Below, piece after piece: positions 17,160-59,587 of a DNA stretch of 64,000 nucleotides (position 1 is its first letter; each line of letters starts with the position of its first letter). Below the pieces are notes generated by a model. The model was not told where the DNA came from, did no database searches, and saw nothing but the letters and a program-made list of their open reading frames with translations. Source of the stretch: Methyloligellaceae bacterium (GTDB lineage: Bacteria > Pseudomonadota > Alphaproteobacteria > Rhizobiales > CBDCYM01); contig CBDCYM010000011.1 of the NCBI GenBank assembly GCA_965224165.1, positions 1,522,877 through 1,586,876 on the forward strand, in the 5' to 3' direction. Position numbers and translations under genes: made by a program.

Positions 17160-17166
17160 GTGACTA

Positions 17167-17279
17167 TCTCTAAATACTCCCTTCGGACCATCCACCATCT
17201 ACCATCCCCCGCCACCCGCCATATTCTGCGATAATTAGGCGGGTGCAGGGGATGGTAGATGGTGGATGGTTTTTAGAGG
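17167..17279. repeat. Long palindromic repeat element, copy 1 (family with copies 2 and 3 at 29171-29257 and 59424-59536)
   Basis: Shares the core gccacccgcc-atattctgcgataattag-gcgggtg with the other two copies. Both arms carry the same extra 'atctacc' segment relative to the other copies. The left arm has a tactcccttcgg segment that the right arm lacks. Confidence 0.85.
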
Positions 17280-17627
17280 TATCGAGGTGCCTACCATCCG
17301 TTAATCGACCTTCGTATAAAGGATTTATAGTCGTCGAAAGTAATGCGTTGTATTTTTGCACCCATTCAAATCATATTTGTATGTTGGTGCTCCGCAAGAA
17401 CTTGTCGCCGTCTTAAAATAAAATTAAACCTCTTCATGTAATTTGATTCAAACTTTACTTGACGACTCCTGGGGGGGGAGACATGGAAAATATGACACCG
17501 GGCGAACATAGCGACTATCCTGAGCATCCACTTGACGGACCTATCCCAACGGATTGAGAACCGGATAGTTCAAAATCAGGCGCTGCTGGGAAGCAGTGAT
17601 TGCAAATTGCAATAATAAAAACGGCTG

Positions 17628-25850: not shown

Positions 25851-27223
25851 TATGCATAGTCTCTAAAAACTGGGTCGACATGTCCTTCCCATTCTGTGTC
25901 ATATTGGGCGAGCATCTTTTCAGCGGATGTCCGCCCATCTTTAATAATGGCCTCTAACTCAGCTAGAAAAAGATTTTCTTCCGAAGCATCATTATTGATT
26001 AGCTTACGTGCTTTTAGTCCCTCTTTGGCAAGGATGATCGAGGCCCGCGCAACATCAAGAACGGTTCCCCCTCTAAAAGGTGTTGCCAACGCCATTTTCG
26101 GAACTGTGTCTCGCAACATTTGACGCTCTTCGGCAGTCCAATCTTTTACGAGCGCCCATGTAGCATCAAGGGTCGCGCTATCATAAAGCAATCCCACCCA
26201 AAATGCCGGAAGGGCACAAAGTCGCCGCCATGGCCCACCATCCGCGCCGCGCATTTCAAGAAATTTTTTCATGCGAACTTCAGGAAATAACGTTGTTAAA
26301 TGGTCAGACCAATCCGTTACTGTCGGTCGCTCATCCTTCAACGCTTCATGCCGTCCGTCTAAGAAAGCTCGAAACGTATTACTGGTCGCATCAATATACC
26401 GTCCACCGCGGTAAAGAAAATACATGGGCACATCAAGGGCATAATCCACATAGCGTTCGAACCCCATTCCGTCTTCAAAGACAAATGGCAACATGCCTGT
26501 CCGGTCAGGGTCCGTATTGCGCCAGACCTCGCTTCGATAGGAAAGGAAGCCGTTTGGTTTGCCGTCGGTAAAAGGTGAGTTCGCAAAAAGTGCCGTCGCA
26601 ATTGGTTGCATGGCCAGGGCCACGCGGAACTTTTTGCGCATATCCGCTTCATTTGCGAAGTCAAGATTTACTTGTACAGTGCAAGAGCGATACATCATGT
26701 CCAGACCAAGACGCCCGACTTTTGGCATATGGGCCGTCATGATGTCATAACGCCCTTTTGGCATGCGCGGCGTTTCCTCCAACCGCCATTTTGGAGAAAA
26801 GCCAAGCCCGAGAAATCCGATACCAAGTTGATCACCAACCCTGCGGACTTGTGAAAGATGTTCCTCCACCTCCCGGCATGTCTCATGTAGGCTGACGACT
26901 GGGGCACCTGAAAGTTCGAATTGTCCGCCAGGTTCAAGTGTAATTGACCCCCCTTGTGGACAGTCCCGTTGTTTAAGGCCAATGATGTTTGCCCCTTCCA
27001 TGATAGGTTCCCAGCCGAAACTTTGTGAAAGCCCCTCAAGCAGGGCTCGCACACCGCGCGGTCCTTCATAGGGAAGGGGGGTTAAGTCGTCCGTATGAAA
27101 TCCGAACTTTTCGTGCTCGGTTCCGATCCGCCACTCAGGACGTGGCTTGCATGCAGCTTCAAAATAACCGACCAGTGTGTCACGTGACTCGATCGGCAGG
27201 CTTTCGCCAACGCTGTCTGCCAT
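25847..27223 (-). CDS. gshA: glutamate-cysteine ligase, plant/alphaproteobacterial GCS2 type
   Basis: 458 aa with strong overall similarity to GCS2-family gamma-glutamylcysteine synthetases (…RMPKGRYDIMTAHMPKVGRLGLDMMYRSCTVQVNLDF…). Confidence 0.85.
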   Translation of the reverse strand: MADSVGESLPIESRDTLVGYFEAACKPRPEWRIGTEHEKFGFHTDDLTPLPYEGPRGVRALLEGLSQSFGWEPIMEGANIIGLKQRDCPQGGSITLEPGGQFELSGAPVVSLHETCREVEEHLSQVRRVGDQLGIGFLGLGFSPKWRLEETPRMPKGRYDIMTAHMPKVGRLGLDMMYRSCTVQVNLDFANEADMRKKFRVALAMQPIATALFANSPFTDGKPNGFLSYRSEVWRNTDPDRTGMLPFVFEDGMGFERYVDYALDVPMYFLYRGGRYIDATSNTFRAFLDGRHEALKDERPTVTDWSDHLTTLFPEVRMKKFLEMRGADGGPWRRLCALPAFWVGLLYDSATLDATWALVKDWTAEERQMLRDTVPKMALATPFRGGTVLDVARASIILAKEGLKARKLINNDASEENLFLAELEAIIKDGRTSAEKMLAQYDTEWEGHVDPVFRDYAY

Positions 27224-27287
27224 ATAAATCTCCTTGGCATCTGCTCAGCCAATTGCACTTAGGCTTTGGCTACAGCCCCTTTAAAGA

Positions 27288-28046
27288 TTATTTCTGCCAG
27301 TCGCCTAGCACAGCATTGACAAGTGCAAGTGCTGCAACGCCGGCTGTATCTGCCCTCATGATACGAGGTCCGAGCGAAATTGCCGTTACAAACGGCAAGC
27401 CCTTAAGCCATGTCTGCTCCTCTGTTTCAAAACCGCCTTCCGGCCCTATGAGAACTGCAAGTGGTCCTGGTTTTATGTCCCGGAGCTGATCAATAGGTGC
27501 CGCAATTTCTGCGCTCTCATCGCAATAAATCAGCGGCCGTTCATGTGTCCAACCCTTTAACGCCTGGGTGAGCTTCTGAGGCTCTTCAATGTCTGGAACA
27601 TGAAGAATGCCGCACTGTTCCGCCGCCTCAATAGCATTGGCGCGCATACGTTCCAAGTTTACACGAGCAACCTGGGTGCGGCTGGTGATCACAGGGTTCA
27701 GGACAGAAACACCCATTTCAACGGCTTTTTGAACCATATAATCCATGCGTGCACGCTTTAAAGGGGCGAAAAGGTAATGGATATCCTGTCCATTTTCTTG
27801 AGGACGAATCTGAACGACAATTCTTAATCGGCAATGGCCTTTACGAACTTCAATGAGGTGAGCGCGCCACTCACCGTCTTTGCCGTTAAAAACCGACACG
27901 TCATCTCCTTCCCGCAGCCGAAGGACATTGACTAAATAATTTGTCTGGTTTGCTGTACTTATATGCTCAGCATTGGAACTAAGGGGAGTTTCCACAAAAA
28001 GCCGGGGCGCAGAAAAATCAAAGCGGGGCACTAGGCCGCTTTCCAT
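27288..28046 (-). CDS. rsmE: 16S rRNA (uracil1498-N3)-methyltransferase, RsmE family
   Basis: RsmE-like N-terminal PUA-like region and C-terminal SPOUT domain, about 250 aa. Confidence 0.75.
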   Translation of the reverse strand: MESGLVPRFDFSAPRLFVETPLSSNAEHISTANQTNYLVNVLRLREGDDVSVFNGKDGEWRAHLIEVRKGHCRLRIVVQIRPQENGQDIHYLFAPLKRARMDYMVQKAVEMGVSVLNPVITSRTQVARVNLERMRANAIEAAEQCGILHVPDIEEPQKLTQALKGWTHERPLIYCDESAEIAAPIDQLRDIKPGPLAVLIGPEGGFETEEQTWLKGLPFVTAISLGPRIMRADTAGVAALALVNAVLGDWQK

Positions 28047-28585
28047 TTTATGGAGCAGCCCATGGAAGGAATTTGTTCTTTAGGACCGATGCCGGTTTCA
28101 GCCACCTGCTTCATTGCTTCAAAAAGGTCACGTCTAACATCCGTAGGCGCGGTTTCTTTCCGGCTTGCATCAAGTCGTCCGCGATATTGCAATTCGAGGT
28201 CCTTGTTAAAACCAAAAAAGTCCGGCGTACAAGCAGCATTATAAGCTTTTGCAACAGCCTGGGTTTCATCGTGCAAATAGGGAAATGTGAAGCCGTGCTC
28301 ATCGGCAAACCGTTTCATATTTTCAAATGAGTCATCCGGATAAGCTTCCGCATCATTTGCGCAGATGGCCACAGAGCGAATACCTAATGGTTCGAGGGCA
28401 GCAACTTCCCGTACAATCCGGTCAATCACCGATTTCACATAGGGGCAATGATTACAAATAAACATGATCAGCAAGCCCCGCTCACCCAGCATATCATCTC
28501 GACGGTATATATTGCCGTCTGTTCCGGGCAAGTGAAAGTCAGGTGCTGTCCAACCAAAATCACATATCGGTGTTTCTACAGGCAT
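28031..28585 (-). CDS. thioredoxin-fold thiol-disulfide oxidoreductase (CNHC active site)
   Basis: Active-site motif ICNHCPYV within a thioredoxin-like fold, 184 aa. Confidence 0.7.
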   Translation of the reverse strand: MPVETPICDFGWTAPDFHLPGTDGNIYRRDDMLGERGLLIMFICNHCPYVKSVIDRIVREVAALEPLGIRSVAICANDAEAYPDDSFENMKRFADEHGFTFPYLHDETQAVAKAYNAACTPDFFGFNKDLELQYRGRLDASRKETAPTDVRRDLFEAMKQVAETGIGPKEQIPSMGCSIKWKAA

Positions 28586-29101
28586 CGTGTTTCCTAGCAG
28601 AATTTTTCCAGTTTAATAGGTGGATGTTGATATTTGAAGGTGAAGCTTAGGTGAGTATCACATCTAATGCAATTCAGAGTTGACGCGGAAGGGTTTTTCA
28701 TATCATAATCCAAATATAGATATGAACGGAGGTTTAAGAAAATGACCCCTCCAAAAAGGTTCGAGCTATCCTGAGCGTGCTTTATTACAGCTTTTCCTTA
28801 GGATGGCATAATATTCCATAAGAAAGATCTTTGCGAAAGTTTAACTCCGAACGTATGGTGGGAGAGTATGCTTGTGGTATAGTTCCGAATACATTCAATT
28901 TCCACCTTTTGTTTGGAGTGATGCTTGATAGACCTGATGTGATCAGGTGGGCCATATGAGGCAGTAGTTACAACGTATGCTGTGCTGACATGGGGTTATC
29001 CGGGCGGAGCAACGTAAAGGACCTGCAAAATCGCGAGAGGCCCGACATCACTGAGTTAGGACTGTATCAAACGTAAGGAATTCAGTAAAAGTCAAGGAGG
29101 G

Positions 29102-29138
29102 GGCCTCGTGAACATGGACTCACGAGGCCCTTTTCTTG
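29102..29138 (+). terminator. Rho-independent terminator-like hairpin (ggcctcgtga-N8-tcacgaggcc followed by CTTTTCTT) with no annotated + strand gene upstream
   Basis: 10-bp perfect stem plus a T-rich tract on the + strand only. It is preceded by about 500 bp with no credible ORF. Confidence 0.4.
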
Positions 29139-29170
29139 CAGTATTTTTATACGAGTTGGACATCTTTAAG

Positions 29171-29257
29171 AACCATCCACCACCCCCTGCCACCCGCCAT
29201 ATTCTGCGATAATTAGGCGGGTGGCAGGGGGTGGCCCGAAGGGAGTATTTAGAGATG
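29171..29257. repeat. Long palindromic repeat element, copy 2 (each arm differently truncated)
   Basis: The core ctgccacccgcc-atattctgcgataattag-gcgggtggcag is identical to copy 3. The right arm keeps cccgaagggagtatttagagatgccc. Confidence 0.85.
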
Positions 29258-29340
29258 CCCAGTTGATTTATACCAATCCAACCTACAAGCTTGCCGGAAA
29301 TAATTGACTATCGAGGTTATTTTGTACATTTGATCCTTAT

Positions 29341-29450
29341 TGAGAGTCACTAGATCAATCTGCGTTCAAGTGGATTCACTTGAATGCAGAAAAATTGATC
29401 GATATCAAAGAAGTAGAGCATGTTAAGCGAACTCACTTGAGCGCAACATG
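29341..29450. repeat. Two-hairpin intergenic repeat, copy B (hairpin 1 at 29350-29379, hairpin 2 at 29404-29445)
   Basis: Aligns with 947-1056. Stem differences are compensatory: ccacg/cgtgg against ctgcg/tgcag, and catcc/ggatg against catgtt/aacatg. Confidence 0.7.
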
Positions 29451-29519
29451 CTCTAGAATGTGGGATGATACTCCCCGGTGACAGTATGATGTTGGGCGAA
29501 ATATTGGAGATCATATTTC

Positions 29520-30386
29520 ATGGGTATTTCAGCCTTTATGCATAGGGGGAGGGGCGCATTTTTGTGTGTCTCTCTGATTGTCATGCAAGCATCGTTAGCA
29601 TGGGGTGAGAAGACGCCTTCCCATCCCTGGCCGACAACATCAAAGACGTTTGTTTCTCTTGCGACGCATATAAAGCCTCCCAAGGGTTACCATCGCATCA
29701 AAGCTGAACCTGGAAGTTTTGCCCACTGGCTCCGCAGCTTGCCTTTGAAGCCATCAGGAAGTTTTGTCCGCCTCTATAACGGCAGTTTCAGATTTAATCA
29801 GCTCGCCCATTATGCGGTTATAGATATGGATGTCGGTAAACGCGATTTGCAGCAATGCGCCGATGCCGTCATGCGTCTCCGTGCCGAATATCTATATGCT
29901 CAAGGGCGACGGAATGAAATTGCCTTTAATTTCACAGGCGGGTCTCGCATTCCGTTTTCCCGTTGGAGCAAGGGGTGGCGGCCGCACGTCAAAGGTAAAC
30001 GCGTGAGTTGGTCACGGCGCGGCAAAAGAGGGGCCCATTACAAGAGTTTTCGGAAATATATGGACATTATTTTTGCGTATGCGGGAACATACTCGCTTGA
30101 ACGTGAGATGATCTCGGTCTCAGTTAAAGACATGGCCATTGGAGATGTTTTTATCCAGGGTGGTTTTCCAGGTCATGCCATCCTTGTTGCGGACATGGTG
30201 AAGAACCCAGAGACAGGCGAAAAACGCTTTCTTCTGATCCAAAGTTTCATGCCTGCGCAAGATATTCATGTTTTGCGTGATCCGAAAAATCCGCTTACGC
30301 CTTGGTATGGTCTTGATTTCAGCAAAACACTCATAACACCGGACTGGATCTTCCGGGCTAAAGATTTGCGGCGGTTTAAGAATTGA
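29520..30386 (+). CDS. hypothetical secreted protein, 288 aa (possibly DUF4846-like)
   Basis: N-terminal signal peptide (LCVSLIVMQASLAWG), basic, no catalytic motif recognised. It lies just downstream of two repeat elements. Confidence 0.5.
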   Translation: MGISAFMHRGRGAFLCVSLIVMQASLAWGEKTPSHPWPTTSKTFVSLATHIKPPKGYHRIKAEPGSFAHWLRSLPLKPSGSFVRLYNGSFRFNQLAHYAVIDMDVGKRDLQQCADAVMRLRAEYLYAQGRRNEIAFNFTGGSRIPFSRWSKGWRPHVKGKRVSWSRRGKRGAHYKSFRKYMDIIFAYAGTYSLEREMISVSVKDMAIGDVFIQGGFPGHAILVADMVKNPETGEKRFLLIQSFMPAQDIHVLRDPKNPLTPWYGLDFSKTLITPDWIFRAKDLRRFKN

Positions 30387-30403
30387 AATGTGGCTTGAAC
30401 GGT

Positions 30404-31279
30404 TCAGGACGCAAATAAATAGTCTCTATACTCAGCGAAATCGGATTTAGCCGAACCACACCAAAACAAACTTGGCCAATTCACTAAGTACAGACAATTT
30501 TCACTCATAAATGACTCAATTTCTGGCTCAATCTCATCAACATTAGCGTTTTCTGCTTCCCTCAAGTTGAGGGCAATAATATTGCCGGAAACGTCTACTT
30601 GCCCCCACAACAACCAACCTGATTGCGTCTCAAGCGCAAAACCGTTGACTATAGCTGCCGCAATATTATTGAAAGCCACGCCAGAGAAAGTCCTTTTAAT
30701 TGAAAAAAGATGTTTTATCCGGTCAAAATGGAGGAACTTATCACGAAGAGGCTCTTTTATTATTTTTCGCACATGTATTTGATTAAAACCAATACCTTCT
30801 CTGTGATTTTCATATATCGACTTAATCGCTTTCATTTCCTCGTCAATTGATGAGTTAAAACTGTTGGATATAAACTCAAATTGCCTCCAATCATCTTCTA
30901 AAACAATCAAGGCATCTTCCAATGATATTTTGGCCTCCTTAACTGCTGCGATGTCATCATTTATCGTAGGCAAACTGAACAAGACTGTATTCGGGTCAAT
31001 ATCAAGGATTTCAACCTTTACGAGGGATAATTTTAGATTTCCGGATTTTATGAATTCAGATTTCTTCGGCGGCGATGCATTCAGAACACGCCAATCCTGA
31101 TCCGCCAAATTTATTGTCGTTTGAATTTCGAAGGTATCTGGAAGATCATCTACGGCAATGTTTGATACGGCAAACGGTTGAGAATTATCCCCCTCAAAAA
31201 ATTCTACTTTTATTTCATTCGGATTATTTTTAGATTCAAACATGACAGCTCCAAAAGTCAGGCATTCATAATTAAACAA
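30404..31279 (-). CDS. hypothetical acidic protein, 291 aa, AT-rich (GC clearly below the surrounding genes)
   Basis: Long clean ORF convergent with 29520..30386. Asp/Glu/Asn-rich. No recognisable domain. Confidence 0.45.
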   Translation of the reverse strand: MFNYECLTFGAVMFESKNNPNEIKVEFFEGDNSQPFAVSNIAVDDLPDTFEIQTTINLADQDWRVLNASPPKKSEFIKSGNLKLSLVKVEILDIDPNTVLFSLPTINDDIAAVKEAKISLEDALIVLEDDWRQFEFISNSFNSSIDEEMKAIKSIYENHREGIGFNQIHVRKIIKEPLRDKFLHFDRIKHLFSIKRTFSGVAFNNIAAAIVNGFALETQSGWLLWGQVDVSGNIIALNLREAENANVDEIEPEIESFMSENCLYLVNWPSLFWCGSAKSDFAEYRDYLFAS

Positions 31280-31412
31280 ATTTTGGGTTATTCCTCCGCT
31301 AGCCTGGGCCTGTAATCTGTCAATTTTACTTACGCCGCAATATCAAAAAACAGGATGTTCTTTCGTAACCGCTGGCATAAACGGTTCAGTTCGTTTTAGC
31401 AGATGCAATGCG

Positions 31413-32588
31413 CTAGCGATCTTCTTCACTTGAGGAAGCCTGATCATCTTCTTGCCTCGGTGCTTTTTCAAGGTGCAAGAGGTTATGGAGAAGACTGTCG
31501 AAACCTCGGGCTTCACCACCTGTGACCAGCTTGATCTTACCGACCTTTTCGGTCAGCTTCTCAAGCGCTTCAATTTCTTTCAGACGCAAGAGTAATGGAT
31601 TGTTTTCCATAAGCCGTGCTGTATTGAGCAGTGAGCGCGTGGCGGCTGTTTCTTCGCGGCGGCGGATCAGATTAGCTTGTGCCACCTTTTCCGCTTCTAC
31701 GACCTTGTTAATCAACTCACGCATCTCGCCGGGAAGGATAATGTCCTTCAAGCCAAGCTCGTTGACCGAGACACCTATGTCACCTAGATGCACGTCGACA
31801 TAGGTGCGAACTTGGTTGTCAACAGTCTCACGGTTATTCAGGATCTGATCGAGAGTGCGTGTCGATACGGCTTCCCGCACCGCAAACTGAGTAAGGCGAT
31901 AGATATATGTTGCATAATCAGATGTTTCCTGAACGGCCTTTTCAGGATGCGTCACCTGCGTAAAGGCTGTCAGTGTCACACGCAGTGAGACGCGGTCTTT
32001 GGTCAGGATTTCTTGCGCTGTAATTTCATGCGGGATCGGACGCAGATCTAGTGTCTCCACGCGCACTTGATGATGCACAGCCCAAAAAGCATGCCGGCCG
32101 GGGTCGAGCTCTTCCTTGAGTTCGCCATCGACAAAGAGGAGGCCGGCCTCATGCTGGTTAACCGTCACATCTTGAACAAGAGTCGTCGTGCTGGTCTGGA
32201 TCGCATTCAGATCTTCTTTTTCCACCTTGATGTCTTTTGACGTATCGATCATCTTGACCGTTACGGTGTTCAATGCTTTCCAAAAGACTCGCTTTTTCCA
32301 TGGGCCCATTAAATGAGTAGGCACACCGTCAAATGAGACAATGGCGACCTCGCCTTCACCTGTTTGAACGATTTCAAAATGTTCCTCGGCAATATCAGGA
32401 TGGTTCTTTTCAATAACGGTTGCTATCGCTTCGGGTACTTCGGCCTTCAGGACTGAATGGCGATCAATTTCAATTTTTTGCGAAAAATTAGCAAAACGAT
32501 AACGTCCCGGGCCAAGCACCCGGCTGAATTTTCCATTCTCAAACAAAAAGGCGCGTTCACCTTCGCGCACTGTAACGACGCGGTACAT
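31413..32588 (-). CDS. SPFH/band-7 (stomatin/flotillin-like) domain protein with an about 190-aa N-terminal region of unknown function
   Basis: C-terminal half shows SPFH-like features (…ILTKDRVSLRVTLTAFTQV…ILPGEMRELINKVVEAEKVAQANLIRRREE…) followed by a coiled coil. No TM helix is apparent. Confidence 0.65.
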   Translation of the reverse strand: MYRVVTVREGERAFLFENGKFSRVLGPGRYRFANFSQKIEIDRHSVLKAEVPEAIATVIEKNHPDIAEEHFEIVQTGEGEVAIVSFDGVPTHLMGPWKKRVFWKALNTVTVKMIDTSKDIKVEKEDLNAIQTSTTTLVQDVTVNQHEAGLLFVDGELKEELDPGRHAFWAVHHQVRVETLDLRPIPHEITAQEILTKDRVSLRVTLTAFTQVTHPEKAVQETSDYATYIYRLTQFAVREAVSTRTLDQILNNRETVDNQVRTYVDVHLGDIGVSVNELGLKDIILPGEMRELINKVVEAEKVAQANLIRRREETAATRSLLNTARLMENNPLLLRLKEIEALEKLTEKVGKIKLVTGGEARGFDSLLHNLLHLEKAPRQEDDQASSSEEDR

Positions 32589-32939
32589 CGGTCTATCCTA
32601 AAAACTTTTTATTTCGAGTTGAGCCATCTGGCTCACCTACCAATCACAATCAAAAGTCTTGGAGGACTGGATGGCTACCGATTTCGACGAAAACGGAAGC
32701 AATCCAACTGCATGATATGAAGCAATCCAACTGCATGATATTATGTGACAAAAGGTAGCGGCAGGTACGCGTGCTGTGTGGCGAAATAATGGCCTTAAGC
32801 AAAAAAACTGTTGTATGGATTGATAATATCTATTTTTCTTCATCTAATATCTGATCAAAATAACTCCCACCTGTTAAATGAGCCCAAGAACTTGGGCGGC
32901 AAGGATTTTATATTGATCCCTTGAGTTGAGGTTATTGCA

Positions 32940-33232
32940 CTTTCCTAAACAGGTCACCGGAGGCTTGACCTCGACACGTCATGTGCGGGCCCTTGCTTGA
33001 GGTGCTGCGAGCCCGCCCGCGCCACAAGCACCGCGAGACGAACGCACTCTGGGGCCCGAAGGCCCAGAGCCGCTCATCCGGCAGACCTGTGCGCCAGGCT
33101 TCGCGCAGCACCGGTATCCGCAAGGGCACAAAGCCCATGTCGTGCCTGCCACAATCCGGGTACTCATTTTGGCCGAAGCCGCCACGAGCACCTATCATGT
33201 GGCGTGAGCCCAAACCTCCGGCTCCCCAATAA
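32940..33232 (-). ncRNA. candidate structured ncRNA of about 290 nt. It is GC-rich with two C(UUCG)G tetraloop hairpins on the - strand. Its identity is unknown.
   Basis: GC is about 64% against a local 45-50%. No protein-like ORF is present; the six-frame ORFs here are Arg/Pro-rich and overlap on both strands. On the - strand there are hairpins gggcc-TTCG-ggccc and ggc-TTCG-gcc. The ends are complementary (gccggagg … cctccggt). Confidence 0.35.
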
Positions 33233-33279
33233 GTATTTGAGCCAGATTATCAGTCTGGTCCAGGTTATGAGCCTGGTCG

Positions 33280-33351
33280 ATCAGATAGAAGGAATCGAAC
33301 CTTCGTCCCATTGGGGGAAACCCAATTGCTCTACCTCTGAGCTATATCCGA
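33280..33351 (-). tRNA. tRNA-like cloverleaf, 72 nt, with an aberrant anticodon arm (6-bp stem with a 5-nt loop, or loop GUUUCCC reading UUC). Possibly a tRNA pseudogene or tRNA-derived element.
   Basis: Reverse complement is TCGGATATAGCTCAGAGGTAGAGCAATTGGGTTTCCCCCAATGGGACGAAGGTTCGATTCCTTCTATCTGAT. D-arm and T-arm are canonical (TAGCTCAGAGGTAGAGC; GAAGGTTCGATTCCTTC). The acceptor stem has a G3·U70 wobble and no CCA is encoded. The anticodon loop is not a canonical 7-nt loop with a purine at position 37. Confidence 0.4.
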
Positions 33352-33806: not shown

Positions 33807-35840
33807 ATGGGAAAAGTAGGCGATCTTTTCGCAAGATTAGAAGAAAAAATGGAACAAGCTCCGATCAGCCGCCGCGGGTCGAAAAAAGGCCGGGAGGGTG
33901 AAGCAAAATATACGGCTGCCGATATTGAGGTGCTCGAAGGGCTGGAACCCGTGCGCCGCCGTCCTGGCATGTATATTGGTGGCACGGATGAAAAGGCGCT
34001 GCATCATCTCTTTGCCGAAGTTATCGATAATTCCATGGATGAAGCCGTTGCCGGGCATGCGAGTTGGATTGAGGTTGCGTTGGACAAAGACGGCTGGTTG
34101 ACGGTAACGGACAATGGCCGGGGTATTCCTGTTGACCCTCATCCAAAATATAAAAAGAAATCCGCTCTTGAAGTCATTATGACCACGCTGCATGCAGGCG
34201 GAAAATTCAACTCTAAGGTTTATGACACATCAGGCGGTTTGCATGGCGTTGGCGTTTCGGTGGTCAATGCCCTTTCCGAAAAGCTTGAGGTTGAGGTTGC
34301 GCGCGATAAGCAGCTTTACCGGCAAATCTACAGTCGTGGCAAACCGCAAGGAGCGCTTAAAAAGCTAGGATCTATAAAGAATCGCCGTGGTACCAAAATC
34401 CGCTTCAAACCGGATGAGAAAATCTTCGGCAAAAAAGCGGCTTTTAAGCCTTCGCGATTATTCCGCATGGCGCGATCCAAAGCCTATCTCTTCGGCGGTG
34501 TGGAAATTCGTTGGTCCTGTGCGCCAAGCCTCATTGACGCGAAAGATGAGACACCGCCGCAAGCGGTTTTTCATTTTCCGGGAGGTCTAAAGGACTTCTT
34601 GGCGTCGCGCATTGAAGGGCGGACATATGTTGCCCGCGATGCTTTCTTTGGCAAACACAACCAGGATGGCGGTCATGGTTCCGTGGAATGGGCCATCGCT
34701 TGGATTGGCGATGCGGACGGCTTTTTAAACTCTTATTGTAACACTGTGCCGACGGCTGACGGCGGCACGCATGAAGCCGGATTGCGCGCTGCTCTCACCA
34801 AAGGGTTGAGGGCCTATGGTGAGCTAACGGGCAATAAAAAGGCGGCGCAGATAACGGCTGATGACGTTTTGTCTTCCGCTGCGGCTATGCTCTCAGTTTT
34901 CATTCGGGAACCAGAGTTTCAAGGCCAAACAAAGGATAAACTCGCCACGCAGGAGGCGGCTCGTATTGTCGAGAGCACGCTGCGCGATGCATTTGATCAT
35001 TGGCTGACGGCGAGCCCTCAGCAAGCGAACAAACTCTTGGAATGGGTTATTGACCGCTCAGAAGAACGCCTGCGCCGCCGTCGCGAAAAAGAAGTAAACC
35101 GTAAAACCGCGGCCCGCAAACTGCGTCTGCCTGGGAAACTTGCTGATTGTTCAAAGTCGGCAAAGGATGGAACGGAAATTTTTATCGTTGAGGGGGACTC
35201 AGCTGGTGGTTCAGCCAAACAGGCGCGCAATCGTGCGACCCAAGCCGTCTTGCCTCTGCGTGGCAAAATTCTAAACGTTGCCAATGCCAGCTCCGCCAAG
35301 CTTGCGCAAAACCAGCTTTTGTCGGACCTCATTCAGGCTTTGGGCTGTGGAATGGGAACAAGTTACCGGGATGATGATTTGCGCTACGAGAAGGTTATCA
35401 TCATGACCGACGCCGATGTGGACGGTGCCCATATTGCGTCTCTACTCATCACCTTTTTTTACCGGCAAATGCCGGAACTCATCGAAAATGGCCATCTTTA
35501 TCTAGCCGTGCCGCCGCTTTATAAAATTACGCAAGGCGCTAAATCGGTCTATGCCCGTGATGATGCGCACAAAGATAGTTTGCTTGAGAGCGATTTTACA
35601 GGGCGCGGTAAGATCGAAATTTCCCGCTTTAAAGGCCTTGGTGAAATGATGCCGGCCCAGCTTAAAGAAACCACCATGAATCCGGAGACGCGCATTCTGC
35701 TTCGTGTTGAAGTGGATGAAGATGATCGCACCCAAACCTCAAAAGCAGTTGATCAACTTATGGGAAATAAGCCGGAAGCGCGCTTTAAGTTTATCCAGGA
35801 CAATGCTGAATATGTCAGTGGTGAGGAGCTGGATATTTAA
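33807..35840 (+). CDS. parE: DNA topoisomerase IV subunit B
   Basis: GHKL ATPase, TOPRIM and GyrB C-terminal motifs. The 677-aa length is the ParE size (short against GyrB, about 800 aa). Confidence 0.88.
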   Translation: MGKVGDLFARLEEKMEQAPISRRGSKKGREGEAKYTAADIEVLEGLEPVRRRPGMYIGGTDEKALHHLFAEVIDNSMDEAVAGHASWIEVALDKDGWLTVTDNGRGIPVDPHPKYKKKSALEVIMTTLHAGGKFNSKVYDTSGGLHGVGVSVVNALSEKLEVEVARDKQLYRQIYSRGKPQGALKKLGSIKNRRGTKIRFKPDEKIFGKKAAFKPSRLFRMARSKAYLFGGVEIRWSCAPSLIDAKDETPPQAVFHFPGGLKDFLASRIEGRTYVARDAFFGKHNQDGGHGSVEWAIAWIGDADGFLNSYCNTVPTADGGTHEAGLRAALTKGLRAYGELTGNKKAAQITADDVLSSAAAMLSVFIREPEFQGQTKDKLATQEAARIVESTLRDAFDHWLTASPQQANKLLEWVIDRSEERLRRRREKEVNRKTAARKLRLPGKLADCSKSAKDGTEIFIVEGDSAGGSAKQARNRATQAVLPLRGKILNVANASSAKLAQNQLLSDLIQALGCGMGTSYRDDDLRYEKVIIMTDADVDGAHIASLLITFFYRQMPELIENGHLYLAVPPLYKITQGAKSVYARDDAHKDSLLESDFTGRGKIEISRFKGLGEMMPAQLKETTMNPETRILLRVEVDEDDRTQTSKAVDQLMGNKPEARFKFIQDNAEYVSGEELDI

Positions 35841-40589: not shown

Positions 40590-41966
40590 ATGGCCACCGA
40601 AGTCTTGATGCCAGCCCTATCCCCTACGATGGAGGAGGGCAAACTTGCCAAATGGTTGGTAAAAGAGGGAGATGAGATCACTGCAGGAGATGTGATCGCA
40701 GAGATTGAAACAGATAAAGCGACCATGGAGGTTGAGGCGGTGGATGAGGGGACCGTCGGTAAAATCCTCATTAATGAGGGAACTGAAAACGTTAAGGTGA
40801 ATACGCCAATCGCTGTCATCCTACAGGAAGACGAACCAAGCGATAAAACAATATCAACCGAAAAGACATCACCCACAGATGTCGTGGATGTGCCTGTCGA
40901 AAGCGACAAATCCGGTGCATCGCTCGCCAAGCCGGATTATTCAGCGTCACTAGCAGCTGAGCCTGACATTCCGGCAGGGACTCAGATGGTTAGTCTCACG
41001 GTTCGTGAAGCTCTGCGCGACGCCATGGCTGAAGAAATGCGTCGTGACGAGGATGTATTTGTAATGGGTGAAGAAGTTGCAGAATATCAAGGGGCTTACA
41101 AAATCACCCAGGGGTTGTTGGATGAGTTTGGAGACCGGCGCGTTATTGATACACCGATTACCGAGCACGGGTTTGCCGGTGTTGGGGTTGGGGCTGCCTT
41201 TGCAGGCCTTAAGCCCATCGTTGAGTTCATGACGTGGAATTTTGGTATGCAGGCCATCGACCATATCATTAATTCGGCGGCAAAAACCCTCTACATGTCG
41301 GGCGGTCAGATGCGCTGTCCGATCGTATTTCGTGGTCCAAATGGCGCTGCTTCGCGGGTGGCGGCGCAACATAGCCAATGCTATTCAGCATGGTATTCGC
41401 ATGTGCCTGGGTTGAAAGTTATTTCTCCCTTTACGGCGGCGGACCATAAGGGATTGCTTAAAGCTGCCATTCGCGATCCTAATCCGGTTGTTTTTCTTGA
41501 AAACGAAATACTCTATGGCCAAAACTTCGATGTTCCGGACATTGAGGATTGGGTTGTGCCGATTGGCAAGGCAAAAGTGGTTCGAGAAGGAAAGGACGTT
41601 ACAATTGTCTCCTTTTCCCGGGGAATGGCCTATGCGTTTGAGGCGGCTGAAATATTGACCGGTGACGGCATTGACGCTGAGATTATTGATTTGAGAACTT
41701 TGAGGCCGTTGGACATCCCAACACTTATCAATTCCGTTAAAAAGACCAACCGGATTGTAACTGTTGAAGAAGCCTGGCCTGTTTGTTCAGTCGGTTCTGA
41801 AATTTGTTCAACCATCGCTCGTGAGGCCTTTGATTATCTTGACGCCCCACCTACAAAGGTTTCTGGTGCAGATATTCCTATGCCCTATGCCGCTAATCTT
41901 GAAAAATTGGCGTTGCCATCGGCGGATCAAGTGGTCAAAGCAGTCAAATCTGTTTGTTACGTATAG
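40590..41966 (+). CDS. pdhB: pyruvate dehydrogenase E1 component, beta subunit, with an N-terminal lipoyl domain
   Basis: Lipoyl-attachment motif [10 protein letters not shown] at the N-terminus followed by transketolase-like E1-beta domains, 458 aa. Confidence 0.9.
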
Positions 41967-42078: not shown

Positions 42079-43440
42079 ATGCCTATACCTATTCTTATGC
42101 CCGCACTTTCACCAACCATGGAAGACGGCACACTTGCCAAGTGGTATGTGAAGGAAGGTGATGAAGTGACATCCGGTGATGTCATTGCAGAAATTGAAAC
42201 CGACAAAGCCACCATGGAGGTGGAAGCTGTTGATGAGGGAACTGTGGGGAAAATTCTTATCGTTGAAGGTACGGAGGGGGTCGCGGTTAATGCACCAATC
42301 GCTGTGCTGTTAGAAGAGGGCGAAGATAGTGGTGCGCTTCAGGCTTTTAATGCCGAAGGGGCCAAACACGCGACCCCAACGGCGGCTGCGACAATTATTG
42401 AGACAACGTCTGATCAGCCAGTTGAGTCAAAAGAGGCATCTGTAGAAGTGGTAGAACAATCAACACAAACAGCGTCACTTAACGGACAAGGTGGACGAAT
42501 TTTGGCAAGTCCTTTAGCTCGAAGGATTGCCAAGGATAATGAAGTTGATATCGCGGTTGTTTCAGGCTCAGGCCCTCACGGGCGCGTGGTCAAGCGCGAT
42601 ATTGAACGCGCGGTCAAAGAGGGCGTGCAGGCTGATACCGGTAGGGCGGTGGTCGCCCCAGGTGCTGGCGACCAGTCGAAAGCAGGGCCGTCTCTTCCCA
42701 TAGGGATGAGTGATGATCAAATCATGGCTCTTTATGATTCCGGCAGTTATGAGGTCGTGCCTCATGACAATATGCGTAAAACGATTGCGCGGCGCTTGGT
42801 TGAATCCAAAATTACCATCCCGCATTTTTATCTTTCAATTGAATGTGAGCTGGATGCACTTTTAGCTGCTCGCAGGCGCATGAATGATATTGCACCTCAA
42901 GAGGGACCCAAAACCTATAAGCTTTCAGTCAATGATTTTATTATCAAAGCAATGGCGATGGCCCTGCAACAAGTGCCGCATGCAAACGCAACTTGGACGG
43001 AGCAAGGTATTTTGCGCCACAGAAGTTCCGATGTGGGTGTTGCTGTTGCTGTTGATGGCGGGTTGTTTACACCGGTTCTCCGACATGCGGAATTAAAAAG
43101 CCTTTCGGAAATCTCAAACGAGATGAAGGATCTGGCCGAACGGGCTAGAAATCGACGGCTAGCGCCACATGAATATCAAGGTGGCACGACATCAATTTCC
43201 AATCTTGGCATGTTTGGAATTAAGAGATTTGACGCGGTTATTAATCCGCCTCATGCCACCATTTTGGCCGTGGGAGTGGGCGAGCGCCGACCGGTTGTAA
43301 AAGGTGATGCCGTACAAATTGCAAATATCATGTCTGTCACGCTTTCTTGTGATCATCGTGTCGTTGATGGAGCATTGGGGGCGGAATTGTTAGGTGCGTT
43401 TAAGCGGTTCATCGAAGAGCCAGTCTCCATGTTGGTTTAG
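42079..43440 (+). CDS. pdhC: dihydrolipoamide acetyltransferase (E2)
   Basis: Lipoyl domain ([11 protein letters not shown]), E3-binding domain, and catalytic domain with the …DHRVVDGA… motif. Confidence 0.9.
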
Positions 43441-58744: not shown

Positions 58745-59272
58745 ATGAGTTCAATTGTATTTATCGGAATTTTGGTTTTACTTCTAGCTGCAGCGGATTT
58801 TTCTGGCTGGTTTTCCAGAATTGAAATCTTTTTGAACCGGCTTAGCTTGAAATCACAAGCTTTTTTCAAATGGACTAAGAGTTTTATATCTCTCATTTGG
58901 ACGAATGAATTCGGCGATTGGGTCTTCAAAATTTGGATATACGGTTTCATTTTATCAGCAATTATTATGATGGGAGTTGTCATAGTAAAAGGTCCAGTTG
59001 GAATATCATTAAATGATGACAACTCATCTTTTGTAATAAATTTGCTTATATACTTCTATTATGCATTCGGAATTTTCTTGCTGGTCAATATATACTTCGT
59101 TATTGCTGTGTATCTTTTAATCTATCCTGCGACAGTTATTCTTTCTTGGCTTGTAAAAGCGTTCCATTTTATGAGTAAAGCCCCTAGAGGAATTGTTAGC
59201 AGAGCAGCCTTAGTTTTGGCTTTGGCCGTCTTTTTAGGTCGGTTTGTTTTTAGTCAGCTAATATTTATTTGA
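58745..59272 (+). CDS. hypothetical integral membrane protein, 175 aa, AT-rich
   Basis: Four or five hydrophobic helices. GC is clearly lower than dnaE. It is followed by palindromic repeat copy 3. Confidence 0.4.
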   Translation: MSSIVFIGILVLLLAAADFSGWFSRIEIFLNRLSLKSQAFFKWTKSFISLIWTNEFGDWVFKIWIYGFILSAIIMMGVVIVKGPVGISLNDDNSSFVINLLIYFYYAFGIFLLVNIYFVIAVYLLIYPATVILSWLVKAFHFMSKAPRGIVSRAALVLALAVFLGRFVFSQLIFI

Positions 59273-59423
59273 TAGTGTGTTAAGATTGCCACGTCAGGTG
59301 TTGCAAGTGCAGAAACCTTGCTAACAGTATTGAAATCTACCACAAAAATTACTCTCTAAAACCAATTTGCCATTGATAATCAATAAGTTAGTGCTATTTG
59401 GCAATTAACAATACGATTGGATA

Positions 59424-59536
59424 CCTCTAAATACTCCCTTCGGGCCATCCACCATCCCCTGCCACCCGCCATATTCTGCGATAATTAGGCGGGTGGCAGG
59501 GGATGGTGGATGGCCCGAAGGGAGTATTTAGAGATG
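59424..59536. repeat. Long palindromic repeat element, copy 3. This is the most complete copy, with perfect 47-bp inverted arms around an 18-nt centre (atattctgcgataattag).
   Basis: The left arm tctctaaatactcccttcgggccatccaccatcccctgccacccgcc equals the reverse complement of the right arm. Confidence 0.9.
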
Positions 59537-59587
59537 CCCGATTAGACAACCCTTTACACCAAACAAGCGTTTGTTTAACATCGCTTT

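What the first reader, a model, noticed from the sequence alone, without database searches (positions are those of the whole stretch)
29520..31279. AT-rich, repeat-flanked pair of convergent hypothetical genes: a likely horizontally acquired cassette of unknown function
A 288-aa secreted protein (29520-30386, +) and a 291-aa highly acidic protein (30404-31279, -) converge with only 17 bp between their stops. The second gene has visibly lower GC than the chromosome backbone. Both are preceded by two different repeat elements (29171-29257 and 29341-29450) and followed by an SPFH-domain gene. Neither protein shows a motif I can tie to a known function. A secreted basic protein paired with a cytoplasmic acidic partner is a common layout for toxin/immunity or effector/chaperone modules. 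This makes it the most plausible location in the window for an uncharacterised two-component system.
Basis: partly seen in the sequence, partly recalled or inferred. Interest (0 to 1): 0.6.

Follow-up and report, generated by a model that had tools for sequence, protein, structure and literature searches.

The report
Two unrelated neighbours, not a cassette
The two convergent genes are not a functional pair: one is a resident, secreted NlpC/P60-like cell-wall hydrolase (DUF4846), and the other is a stand-alone gene of an unnamed family that was probably acquired from Gammaproteobacteria and landed in a variable slot beside it.

Summary
Both ORFs are real, but they do not form a module.

- **ORF1 (29520-30386, +):** a full-length DUF4846 protein (Pfam E 2e-96) with a signal peptide. 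Its AlphaFold model matches NlpC/P60 and CHAP cell-wall hydrolases. Cys113, His219 and the GD motif are invariant. A 2023 survey had already classed DUF4846 as NlpC/P60-like. Its GC matches the backbone. It holds the same position (AhpC, DUF4846, ParE) in two related metagenome contigs, at a divergence like that of AhpC.
- **ORF2 (30404-31243, -; true start ATG 31243, 279 aa):** the only AT-rich gene of the pair (GC 0.38 against 0.49). It belongs to an unnamed family of about 1,250 clusters. A confident model finds no match in the PDB. It nests among gammaproteobacterial sequences (bootstrap 98/100).
- **No linkage:** none of 83 homolog loci has a DUF4846 or SPFH gene within 10 kb, and no neighbour family recurs.
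- **Repeats:** the upstream "repeats" are dispersed elements with other copies in the window, and they lie on one side only.
- **The slot:** the DUF4846-ParE interval is variable. It is empty in one relative, holds a TIR gene in another, and holds ORF2, SPFH, a structured block and tRNA-Glu here.

The toxin/immunity reading is refuted. Horizontal transfer holds for ORF2 alone, and ORF2's function remains unknown.

The parts
29520..30386 (+). ORF1: secreted DUF4846 protein, 288 aa. It has an NlpC/P60-like papain fold. The predicted catalytic residues are Cys113 (nt 29856-29858) and His219 (nt 30174-30176), and the GD motif is G208-D209. The signal-like segment covers roughly residues 1-29.
   Evidence: - Pfam PF16138 at E 2.1e-96, 322.5 bits against a 37-bit cut-off, covering the full profile.
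- C113, G208, D209, H219, Q241, S242 and H250 are invariant in 40 homologs.
- AF2 model with pLDDT 89. Cys113 lies at the N-terminus of helix 112-127 and His219 at the start of strand 219-228.
- The literature classification agrees.
- GC is 0.488, like the backbone.
30404..31243 (-). ORF2: acidic stand-alone protein, 279 aa, of an unnamed family. The alternative TTG start at 31279 would give 291 aa. It is probably horizontally acquired.
   Evidence: - No Pfam, NCBIfam, PADLOC or PHROG hit.
- 1,246 clusters at 50% identity, nearly all 250-290 aa and single-architecture.
- Invariant motifs LP(91-92), EDDWRQxE(116-123), HxR(157-159) and W256.
- GC 0.379, z = -2.6.
- Nests in a gammaproteobacterial clade, bootstrap 98/100.
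31413..32588 (-). SPFH/Band_7 ('slipin') gene, 391 aa, with no predicted transmembrane segment. It shares the variable slot but is not linked to ORF2.
   Evidence: - Band_7 at E 7e-34.
- GC 0.496.
- Closest homologs are 65-71% identical and come from Methyloligellaceae and Hyphomicrobiaceae.
- In those relatives it lies in unrelated contexts.
- No SPFH gene occurs in any of the 83 ORF2 loci.
32941..33278 (-). GC-rich (0.618), strongly structured non-coding block immediately 3' of the tRNA-Glu on the same strand. It is part of the slot content.
   Evidence: - MFE -186.7 kcal/mol, z = -8.8 on the minus strand against z = -3.6 on the plus strand.
- No Rfam hit at E <= 1.
- No Pfam hit in the overlapping ORFs.
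- Absent from L084 and L085.
33279..33351 (-). tRNA-Glu(UUC), inside the DUF4846-ParE interval.
   Evidence: - Found by ARAGORN and by Rfam at 58.5 bits.
- No tRNA lies in the corresponding interval of L084 or L085.
- No tRNA-derived direct repeat of 12 nt or more occurs in 27001-33255.
29159..29261 (.). Copy of dispersed palindromic repeat A, with a truncated left arm.
   Evidence: - Other copies lie at 17165-17283 and 59416-59542, at 84-97% identity.
- The full copy has 60-nt arms.
- The inner hairpin spans 29180-29234.
29350..29456 (.). Copy of dispersed repeat B, which contains internal hairpins.
   Evidence: A second copy lies at 935-1006 at 82% identity. Internal inverted repeats were found.
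28680..29138 (+). Conserved leader-like element between AhpC and ORF1. It comprises:
- a promoter-like site at 28680-28709;
- an SD-sequestering hairpin, GGAGG at 28728-28732 pairing with CCTCC;
- a mini-ORF at 28742-28774 encoding MTPPKRFELS;
- a second stem with compensatory changes;
- a terminator-like hairpin at 29093-29138.
   Evidence: - A 37-nt block is about 90% identical in L084 and L085, against about 70% for the neighbouring coding sequence.
- Three-way alignment.
- Five more metagenome loci carry the block.
- Consensus fold has 4 compensatory pairs.
- Promoter and terminator scan.
28031..28585 (-). AhpC/TSA-family gene, the left anchor of the conserved frame.
   Evidence: Pfam AhpC-TSA at E 2.6e-18. 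It is 65-72% identical and collinear in L084, L085 and L095-L098.
33807..35840 (+). ParE/GyrB-type topoisomerase subunit B gene, the right anchor of the conserved frame.
   Evidence: It is 81% identical to L084 and 75% to L095/97/98, and collinear with them.

Best explanation
The two genes are neighbours by accident. They lie in a recombination-prone interval between AhpC and ParE.

**ORF1** is an old resident of this locus. It is a Sec-exported, soluble periplasmic DUF4846 protein with an NlpC/P60-like papain fold. Inferred: Cys113, activated by His219, cleaves an amide bond in peptidoglycan peptide stems or a related cell-envelope substrate. That would make it an ordinary cell-wall remodelling hydrolase.

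**ORF2** is a separate, stand-alone gene of an unnamed but widespread family. It entered this alphaproteobacterial lineage laterally from a gammaproteobacterial gene pool and landed downstream of ORF1. The same slot holds nothing, or unrelated genes, in relatives.

ORF2's biochemical role is not established. My best guess, at low confidence, is an autonomous enzyme or ligand-binding protein whose site is built from the invariant E116-D117-D118-W119-R120-Q121-x-E123 and H157-x-R159 residues. I do not think it is a partner of ORF1 or of the SPFH protein.
For: **ORF1 (shown)**
- DUF4846 at E 2e-96.
- Every aligned homolog has a hydrophobic signal-like N-terminus, and C113, G208-D209 and H219 are invariant.
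- In the model (pLDDT 89) the Cys lies at a helix N-terminus and the His at a strand start.
- An independent published classification places DUF4846 with NlpC/P60.

**Resident status (shown)**
- GC is 0.488.
- The order AhpC, DUF4846, ParE is collinear in L084 and L085, with DUF4846 at about 66%, AhpC at 65-72% and ParE at 81% identity.

**No linkage (shown)**
- 0 of 83 ORF2 loci have DUF4846, and 0 of 83 have SPFH.
- 150 flanking proteins hit 148 Pfam families, none recurring more than 3 times, and blast clustering found no recurrent neighbour.

**ORF2 acquisition**
- GC is 0.38, like its nearest homologs at 0.34-0.42, which also fall below the GC of several of their own hosts.
- The best hit is only 54-55% identical and all close named hits are Gammaproteobacteria.
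- NJ bootstrap is 98/100 for the window copy plus Gammaproteobacteria. The one alphaproteobacterial MAG homolog among the 80 best loci (L033, 35% identity) falls elsewhere in the tree.
- It is absent from the same slot in L084, L085 and L095-98.

**Variable slot**: empty, TIR plus pentapeptide, cytochrome-like genes, or the window's content.
Against: - DUF4846 is missing from the AhpC-ParE interval of L095/97/98, whose ParE is 75% identical. Its residency is lineage-limited and could reflect an older insertion.
- There is no integrase, no flanking direct repeat and no plasmid or phage copy of ORF2, so the transfer mechanism is unknown. At 54% identity no donor has been sampled.
- ORF2's synonymous codon usage is not atypical.
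- 12% of ORF2-family members carry a hydrophobic or lipobox-like N-terminus. The family may act at the envelope, which weakens the claim of different compartments for the family as a whole.
- No close relative of this genome is available. ParE is a singleton at 90% identity, and the related contigs are short metagenome fragments.
Confidence: 0.72

Rival explanations
1. ORF1 is a secreted toxin or effector and ORF2 is its cognate immunity protein or chaperone, acquired together as one cassette.
For: - The charges are opposite (pI 10.3 against 4.6) and the genes are only 17 bp apart.
- Some ORF2-family members have export signals, as periplasmic immunity proteins do.
Against: - There is no co-occurrence: 0 of 83 ORF2 loci have DUF4846, and 0 of 5 DUF4846 loci have ORF2.
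- The family sizes differ greatly: more than 7,900 DUF4846 proteins scored at E <= 1e-10, against about 1,250 ORF2 clusters at 50% identity.
- The genes are convergent rather than co-transcribed.
- ORF1 has a Sec-type signal, backbone composition and conserved synteny.
- The window's ORF2 lacks a signal peptide.
- There is no PADLOC hit.
Confidence: 0.03
2. ORF2 and the SPFH gene lie on the same strand 169 bp apart. They form an acquired two-gene module analogous to SPFH-NfeD operons.
For: - They share a strand and both are absent from the slot in L084 and L085.
- ORF2 has a small N-terminal beta-rich domain.
- Some homologs have an N-terminal hydrophobic segment.
Against: - 0 of 83 ORF2 loci contain an SPFH gene.
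- Close SPFH homologs sit in other contexts without an ORF2.
- SPFH has backbone GC (0.496) and its nearest relatives are Hyphomicrobiales-type.
- ORF2 gives no NfeD Pfam hit.
- A promoter-like site precedes ORF2.
Confidence: 0.05
3. ORF2 is an orphan immunity or inhibitor protein of a polymorphic-toxin or effector system, kept without its toxin.
For: - Its distribution is sporadic across phyla rich in such systems, including Myxococcota, Actinomycetota, Planctomycetota and Enterobacterales.
- In Chania and Serratia it directly follows an ankyrin-repeat gene, and in Chania a CbeA antitoxin gene and a transposase gene lie nearby.
- One Thiodiazotropha locus has an M91-like 'effector' peptidase next to it.
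- Its GC is foreign to several hosts.
Against: - No toxin domain was seen: none among the 25 commonest Pfam families reported for the 150 immediate neighbours, none among the 20 neighbours scanned individually, and no tandem paralogue arrays.
- The protein is large (about 275 aa).
- It is conserved over its full length with an invariant charged motif, more like an active or ligand-binding site.
- It gives no hit to any Pfam Imm or SUKH model.
Confidence: 0.12
4. The whole block from ORF1 to the tRNA-Glu, or the ORF1+ORF2 pair, is a tRNA-targeted genomic island.
For: - A tRNA-Glu lies in the interval.
- The interval's content differs among relatives, and DUF4846 is absent in L095/97/98.
- ORF2 has low GC.
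Against: - There is no integrase or other mobility gene.
- No tRNA-derived direct repeat was found.
- ORF1 and SPFH have backbone composition.
- ORF1's divergence from the L084 and L085 copies is in line with that of AhpC.
- The upstream repeats are dispersed elements on one side only.
Confidence: 0.08

Closest known systems
DUF4846 (Pfam PF16138), placed in papain-like cluster II with NlpC/P60 by Ozhelvaci & Steczkiewicz, J Biol Chem 2023 (PMC10318531)
   Same: ORF1 matches the full profile (E 2e-96) and keeps the conserved catalytic residues and the GD motif described for the family.
   Different: Nothing sets it apart. It is an alphaproteobacterial member, whereas the paper lists mainly Bacteroidota, Firmicutes and Myxococcales. 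The family has no experimental characterisation.
NlpC/P60 and CHAP peptidoglycan endopeptidases/amidases, for example MepS/Spr (PDB 7v6s), CwlO (8wt3) and LytE (8i2f)
   Same: - The fold is papain-like.
- The Cys lies at a helix N-terminus and the His on the following beta-sheet.
- The GD motif is present.
- The protein is exported.
   Different: - Sequence similarity is undetectable by HMM. There is no PF00877 hit, and the profile finds no PDB hit.
- About 60 extra N-terminal residues and an insertion at roughly residues 130-200 are specific to DUF4846.
- The substrate is untested.
   Different: - Real pairs are co-directional and co-inherited, and the immunity protein is periplasmic.
- Here the genes are convergent and never co-occur elsewhere.
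- ORF1 has its own Sec signal.
- The window's ORF2 has none.
Unnamed ORF2 family, annotated only as 'hypothetical protein' in Serratia, Budvicia, Chania, Pseudoteredinibacter, Archangium and others
   Same: The window protein keeps all invariant residues and the full-length architecture.
   Different: It is the only member found in this alphaproteobacterial lineage. It also lacks the hydrophobic N-terminal extension seen in many members of its own subclade.

Membership tests
DUF4846 (PF16138) | Score above the Pfam gathering threshold over the whole domain. | tested here: met
   322.5 bits against a 37-bit cut-off, covering residues 48-285 and profile positions 2-239 of 239.
NlpC/P60-like papain-fold hydrolases (superfamily level) | A papain-like alpha+beta fold. 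| tested here: met
NlpC/P60-like papain-fold hydrolases (superfamily level) | A nucleophilic Cys at the N-terminus of a helix, a His on a following beta-strand, and a conserved GD motif. | tested here: met
   C113 is invariant and lies at the start of helix 112-127. H219 is invariant and lies at the start of strand 219-228. G208-D209 are invariant. The paper reports the same for the family. Residue-by-residue superposition on a solved enzyme could not be inspected.
NlpC/P60-like papain-fold hydrolases (superfamily level) | Hydrolysis of peptidoglycan peptide or amide bonds. | not testable with these tools
   This needs biochemical assays. No DUF4846 member has been characterised.
NLPC_P60 sensu stricto (Pfam PF00877) | A match to the family HMM. 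| tested here: not met
   There is no PF00877 hit at E <= 1, and the DUF4846 profile finds no PDB sequence. ORF1 is therefore a superfamily relative, not a member of PF00877.
Toxin-immunity or effector-chaperone two-gene module | Conserved adjacency and co-inheritance of the two genes. | tested here: not met
   0 of 83 ORF2 loci have DUF4846 within 10 kb. 0 of 5 DUF4846 loci have an ORF2 homolog.
Toxin-immunity or effector-chaperone two-gene module | Co-transcription, meaning the same strand in an operon. | tested here: not met
   The genes converge, with 17 bp between their stop codons.
Toxin-immunity or effector-chaperone two-gene module | The immunity protein is located where the toxin acts. 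| tested here: inconclusive
   ORF1 is exported. The window's ORF2 has no signal (maximum KD19 is 1.39, at residue 186, with a degenerate N-terminus). However, 27 of 226 family members have hydrophobic or lipobox-like N-termini.
Genomic island (tRNA-associated) | Atypical composition across the island. | tested here: not met
   Only ORF2 deviates (z = -2.6). ORF1 and SPFH are at z = +0.1 and +0.3.
Genomic island (tRNA-associated) | An integrase or other mobility gene, and flanking direct repeats derived from the tRNA. | tested here: not met
   No such gene lies between 28586 and 33806. No exact repeat of 12 nt or more from the tRNA neighbourhood was found.
Genomic island (tRNA-associated) | Presence or absence polymorphism among relatives. 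| tested here: met
   ORF2, SPFH, the structured block and the tRNA are absent from the same interval in L084, L085 and L095/97/98.
Known anti-phage defence systems (PADLOC-DB) | A match to a defence-protein model. | tested here: not met
   There are no hits for ORF1, ORF2 or SPFH at E <= 1.
SPFH-NfeD operon | An NfeD-family partner encoded next to the SPFH gene, with recurrent pairing. | tested here: not met
   ORF2 gives no NfeD Pfam hit, and there is no SPFH gene in the 83 ORF2 loci.

The most novel reading that the evidence does not exclude
ORF2 may represent a family (about 1,250 clusters at 50% identity) with a previously undescribed fold and activity. It has no Pfam model, no PDB structural neighbour and an invariant EDDWRQxE / HxR site. 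It would be a self-sufficient single-gene function, such as a new enzyme, a sensor, or a one-gene defence or immunity factor, that moves between distant phyla and has both cytoplasmic and envelope-anchored versions.
Probability: 0.25. Interest if true: 0.5.

Novelty: new member of a known kind. Interest (0 to 1): 0.22.

Why it matters
As posed, the finding does not hold, so there is no new two-component system here.

What remains is useful mainly as annotation:
- It assigns ORF1 to the NlpC/P60-like DUF4846 hydrolases, with explicit predicted catalytic residues.
- It shows that the AhpC-ParE interval in this lineage is a small variable hotspot, which holds a TIR gene in one relative.
- It flags ORF2's family as a well-defined piece of protein "dark matter". 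It has a confident model, no known fold relative and a sharply conserved polar motif, so structural or biochemical work could assign a function to more than a thousand sequence clusters.

Two non-coding elements noticed nearby may be of more intrinsic interest than the gene pair. They are a conserved mini-ORF leader and a highly structured RNA-like block 3' of the tRNA-Glu.

Tried and rejected
**ORF2 against family and structure libraries**
- Pfam, NCBIfam, PADLOC and PHROGs gave nothing for ORF2.
- Scanning all 47 aligned ORF2 homologs against Pfam at E <= 5 gave only scattered weak hits. BBL5 matched 4 of 47, with no consistent remote family.
- PDB sequence searches with the single sequence and with the profile gave nothing meaningful.
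- The AFDB library was not available, so AlphaFold-database neighbours could not be checked.

**ORF1 and the source genome**
- The ORF1 single-sequence PDB search gave only a spurious repeat-protein hit, and the profile search gave nothing.
The source genome could not be named.

**Neighbourhood and mobility tests**
- Neighbour clustering and bulk Pfam annotation around ORF2 homologs looked for a conserved partner and found none.
- An SPFH-ORF2 module was rejected.
- tRNA-derived direct repeats were searched for and none found.
- Plasmid and phage carriage of ORF2 was searched for and none found.
- The GC-rich block next to the tRNA was tested as coding sequence and gave no Pfam hit. Rfam at E <= 1 gave only chance microRNA-type hits on the repeat A hairpin.
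Full report
**1. Observation**

The two ORFs exist as described. ORF1 (29520-30386, +) encodes 288 aa. A convergent ORF on the minus strand ends at 30404, leaving 17 bp (30387-30403) between the stop codons. ORF1 is basic (pI 10.3) with a hydrophobic, signal-like N-terminus, and ORF2 is acidic (pI 4.6). The next gene (31413-32588, -) is an SPFH/Band_7 protein.

ORF2's start is better placed at the ATG at 31243, giving 279 aa. That form matches the homologs' N-termini (MFGFGK...), has a GGAG 5 nt upstream, and is the sequence held in the public collection.

Per-gene composition over 54 window ORFs shows that only ORF2 deviates:

| Gene | GC | z |
|---|---|---|
| ORF2 | 0.379 (GC3 0.368, z = -1.8) | -2.6 |
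| ORF1 | 0.488 | +0.1 |
| SPFH | 0.496 | +0.3 |

The two upstream repeats are real, but they are copies of dispersed elements. Repeat A also occurs at 17165-17283 and 59416-59542, and repeat B at 935-1006. Both lie on the same side of the pair, so the pair is not repeat-flanked.

**2. ORF1**

- ORF1 is a full-length DUF4846 domain protein (PF16138, E 2.1e-96).
- More than 7,900 homologs were scored. The named close ones include Hyphomicrobiaceae, Filomicrobium, Leptospira and Calditrichaeota.
- In an alignment of 40 homologs every sequence has a hydrophobic N-terminal segment. C113 (DLQQCADA), G208-D209, H219 (GGFPGHA), Q241-S242 and H250 are invariant.
- The AlphaFold model (pLDDT 89) puts C113 at the N-terminus of helix 112-127 and H219 at the start of strand 219-228. 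That is the geometry expected of a papain-like catalytic dyad, which I state from general knowledge of clan CA enzymes.
- The only paper in the library that mentions DUF4846 reached the same conclusion computationally. [quoted passage not shown]

ORF1 is therefore a secreted NlpC/P60-like hydrolase. The fold and the residues are shown. The peptidoglycan substrate is inferred.

**3. ORF2**

- ORF2 has no match in Pfam, NCBIfam, PADLOC or PHROGs.
- It still belongs to a real family. There were 100 clusters in the first search. The exhaustive profile search found 1,246 clusters at 50% identity, 498 of them at E <= 1e-30, nearly all 250-290 aa and covering the whole profile.
- Conserved features are LFSLPTIND, an invariant E116-D117-(D118)-W119-R120-Q121-x-E123, H157-x-R159, P165 and W256.
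- The model is confident (pLDDT 91.9). It has a beta-rich N-terminal part (about residues 10-76) and a larger alpha/beta C-terminal part.
- 27 of 226 family members carry a hydrophobic N-terminal extension. Many of these are in the window protein's own subclade, and two have lipobox-like sequences. The window copy has only a degenerate remnant.

**4. Linkage tests**

A scan of one genome per species found relatives in 221 species. They spread over Gammaproteobacteria, Myxococcota, Planctomycetota, Verrucomicrobiota, Chloroflexota, Actinomycetota, Cyanobacteria and Bacteroidota.

- In the 83 loci held, with +-10 kb where available, a DUF4846 HMM found no hit and an SPFH query found no hit.
- Clustering of neighbours found no recurrent family beyond generic regulators.
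- Pfam annotation of 150 immediate neighbours hit 148 families, none present more than 3 times.
- Individual neighbours were heterogeneous: ankyrin, DUF7832, DUF2625, STAS and an M91-like peptidase.
- ORF2 has no relative on 72,556 plasmids or 50,697 phages.

ORF2 is therefore a stand-alone gene with no conserved partner.

**5. Synteny of the locus**

The window's proteins, including ParE, are singletons at 90% identity, so no close genome is available. Related metagenome contigs are still informative.

| Contig(s) | ParE identity to window | AhpC identity | Gene order |
|---|---|---|---|
| L084 | 81% | 72% | AhpC(-), DUF4846(+), 317 bp, ParE(+); DUF4846 66% identical |
| L085 | N-terminal fragment only | 65% | AhpC, DUF4846, a TIR_2 + pentapeptide gene, a 72-aa ORF, ParE |
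| L095/L097/L098 | 75% | 72% | AhpC and ParE adjacent, no DUF4846 |
| L096 | contig ends before ParE | 65% | AhpC, then cytochrome-like genes |

- More distant Hyphomicrobiaceae and Filomicrobium carry DUF4846 elsewhere, next to DUF1489.
- The SPFH protein's closest homologs (65-71%; Methyloligellaceae, Hyphomicrobiaceae) lie in unrelated contexts.
- The AhpC-ParE interval is thus a small variable region. DUF4846 is an older occupant, shared by three lineages at a divergence like that of AhpC.
- ORF2, SPFH, a GC-rich structured block and tRNA-Glu(UUC) are specific to the window.
- No integrase and no tRNA-derived direct repeat is present.

**6. Origin of ORF2**

- Its GC (0.38) resembles that of its nearest homologs (0.34-0.42). 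Those homologs are also AT-rich relative to several of their own hosts, for example Thiodiazotropha at 0.39 against 0.53.
- In a neighbour-joining tree of 27 representatives, the window sequence groups with the Gammaproteobacteria in 98 of 100 bootstraps. The one alphaproteobacterial MAG homolog among the 80 best loci (L033, 35% identity) falls elsewhere.
- Lateral acquisition of ORF2 alone is therefore well supported. At 54% identity to the best hit, no actual donor has been sampled.

**7. Verdict**

The toxin/immunity or effector/chaperone cassette is refuted by the absence of co-inheritance, the convergent orientation, and ORF1's backbone character. What is present is an ordinary, computationally pre-classified periplasmic NlpC/P60-like hydrolase. 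Beside it sits a laterally acquired orphan gene of an uncharacterised family.

ORF2's function is unknown. The sharply conserved charged motif, the full-length conservation and the lack of any partner favour an autonomous enzyme or ligand-binding role (a low-confidence inference) over an orphan immunity protein.

**8. Side observations**

- **Leader-like element (AhpC/ORF1 intergenic region).** It contains a conserved promoter-like site and an invariant GGAGG...ATG...CCTCC block. The block is about 90% identical where coding DNA is about 70%. It encodes a mini-ORF beginning MTPP(K/D), followed by a stem with four compensatory pairs. In the window the element ends in a terminator-like hairpin. 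It accompanies AhpC and ParE even where DUF4846 is absent.
- **Structured block.** The 338 nt immediately 3' of the tRNA-Glu fold with z = -8.8 on the tRNA strand against -3.6 on the other strand, and match no Rfam family.

Noticed in passing
window 28680-29138 (+); also L084 5340-5800, L085 3660-4120, L094-L098: A conserved leader-like element lies between AhpC and the downstream gene. It has a promoter-like TTGAC..CATAAT site and an invariant GGAGGTTTAAGAAAATGAC[CT]CCTCC block, in which the SD can pair with codons 3-4. The mini-ORF begins MTPP(K/D) and runs 10-13 codons. A stem pairs the ORF's 3' end with downstream sequence and has 4 compensatory pairs. In the window the element ends in a terminator-like hairpin. 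It has no Rfam family. It is present whether DUF4846 or ParE follows. It may be a proline-stalling attenuator or a small RNA.
   Followed up: partly
window 32941-33278 (-): A GC-rich (0.618) 338-nt block lies directly 3' of tRNA-Glu(UUC) on the same strand. It forms a long imperfect hairpin with MFE -186.7 kcal/mol. The z-score is -8.8 on the minus strand but only -3.6 on the plus strand, which suggests RNA-level structure. It has no Rfam hit, no Pfam hit in overlapping ORFs, and is absent from related contigs.
   Followed up: partly
L085 5330-7123: In a related genome the slot downstream of DUF4846 holds a 597-aa TIR_2 + pentapeptide-repeat protein, which looks like a defence gene. The AhpC-ParE interval may be a small hotspot for accessory or defence genes.
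   Followed up: no
window 17165-17283, 29159-29261, 59416-59542: A dispersed palindromic repeat of up to 127 nt, with 60-nt arms, has three copies in 64 kb. The full copy at 59416-59542 directly follows the lowest-GC ORF of the window (58745-59272, GC 0.343), which is another candidate foreign gene.
   Followed up: no
window 32696-32741: A perfect 23-nt tandem duplication (GAAGCAATCCAACTGCATGATAT x2) lies about 110 nt upstream of the SPFH start codon.
   Followed up: no
ORF2 family (P0003, P0017-P0023, P0030, P0042, P0376, P0415 and others): 27 of 226 homologs carry a hydrophobic N-terminal extension, typically MNK-ILIFVLAMGVS-MFGFGK, and two have lipobox-like sequences. The family therefore seems to have both cytoplasmic and envelope-targeted versions. 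The window copy keeps only a degenerate remnant.
   Followed up: partly
window 31413-32588 (-): The SPFH ('slipin') protein has no predicted transmembrane segment (maximum 19-residue hydropathy 0.82) and about 140 residues ahead of the Band_7 domain. This is unusual for the normally membrane-anchored SPFH proteins.
   Followed up: no
window 40608-40835 and 42097-42324: A 228-nt direct repeat at 72% identity lies within two adjacent same-strand ORFs (40590-41966 and 42079-43440). They are probably tandem paralogues.
   Followed up: no
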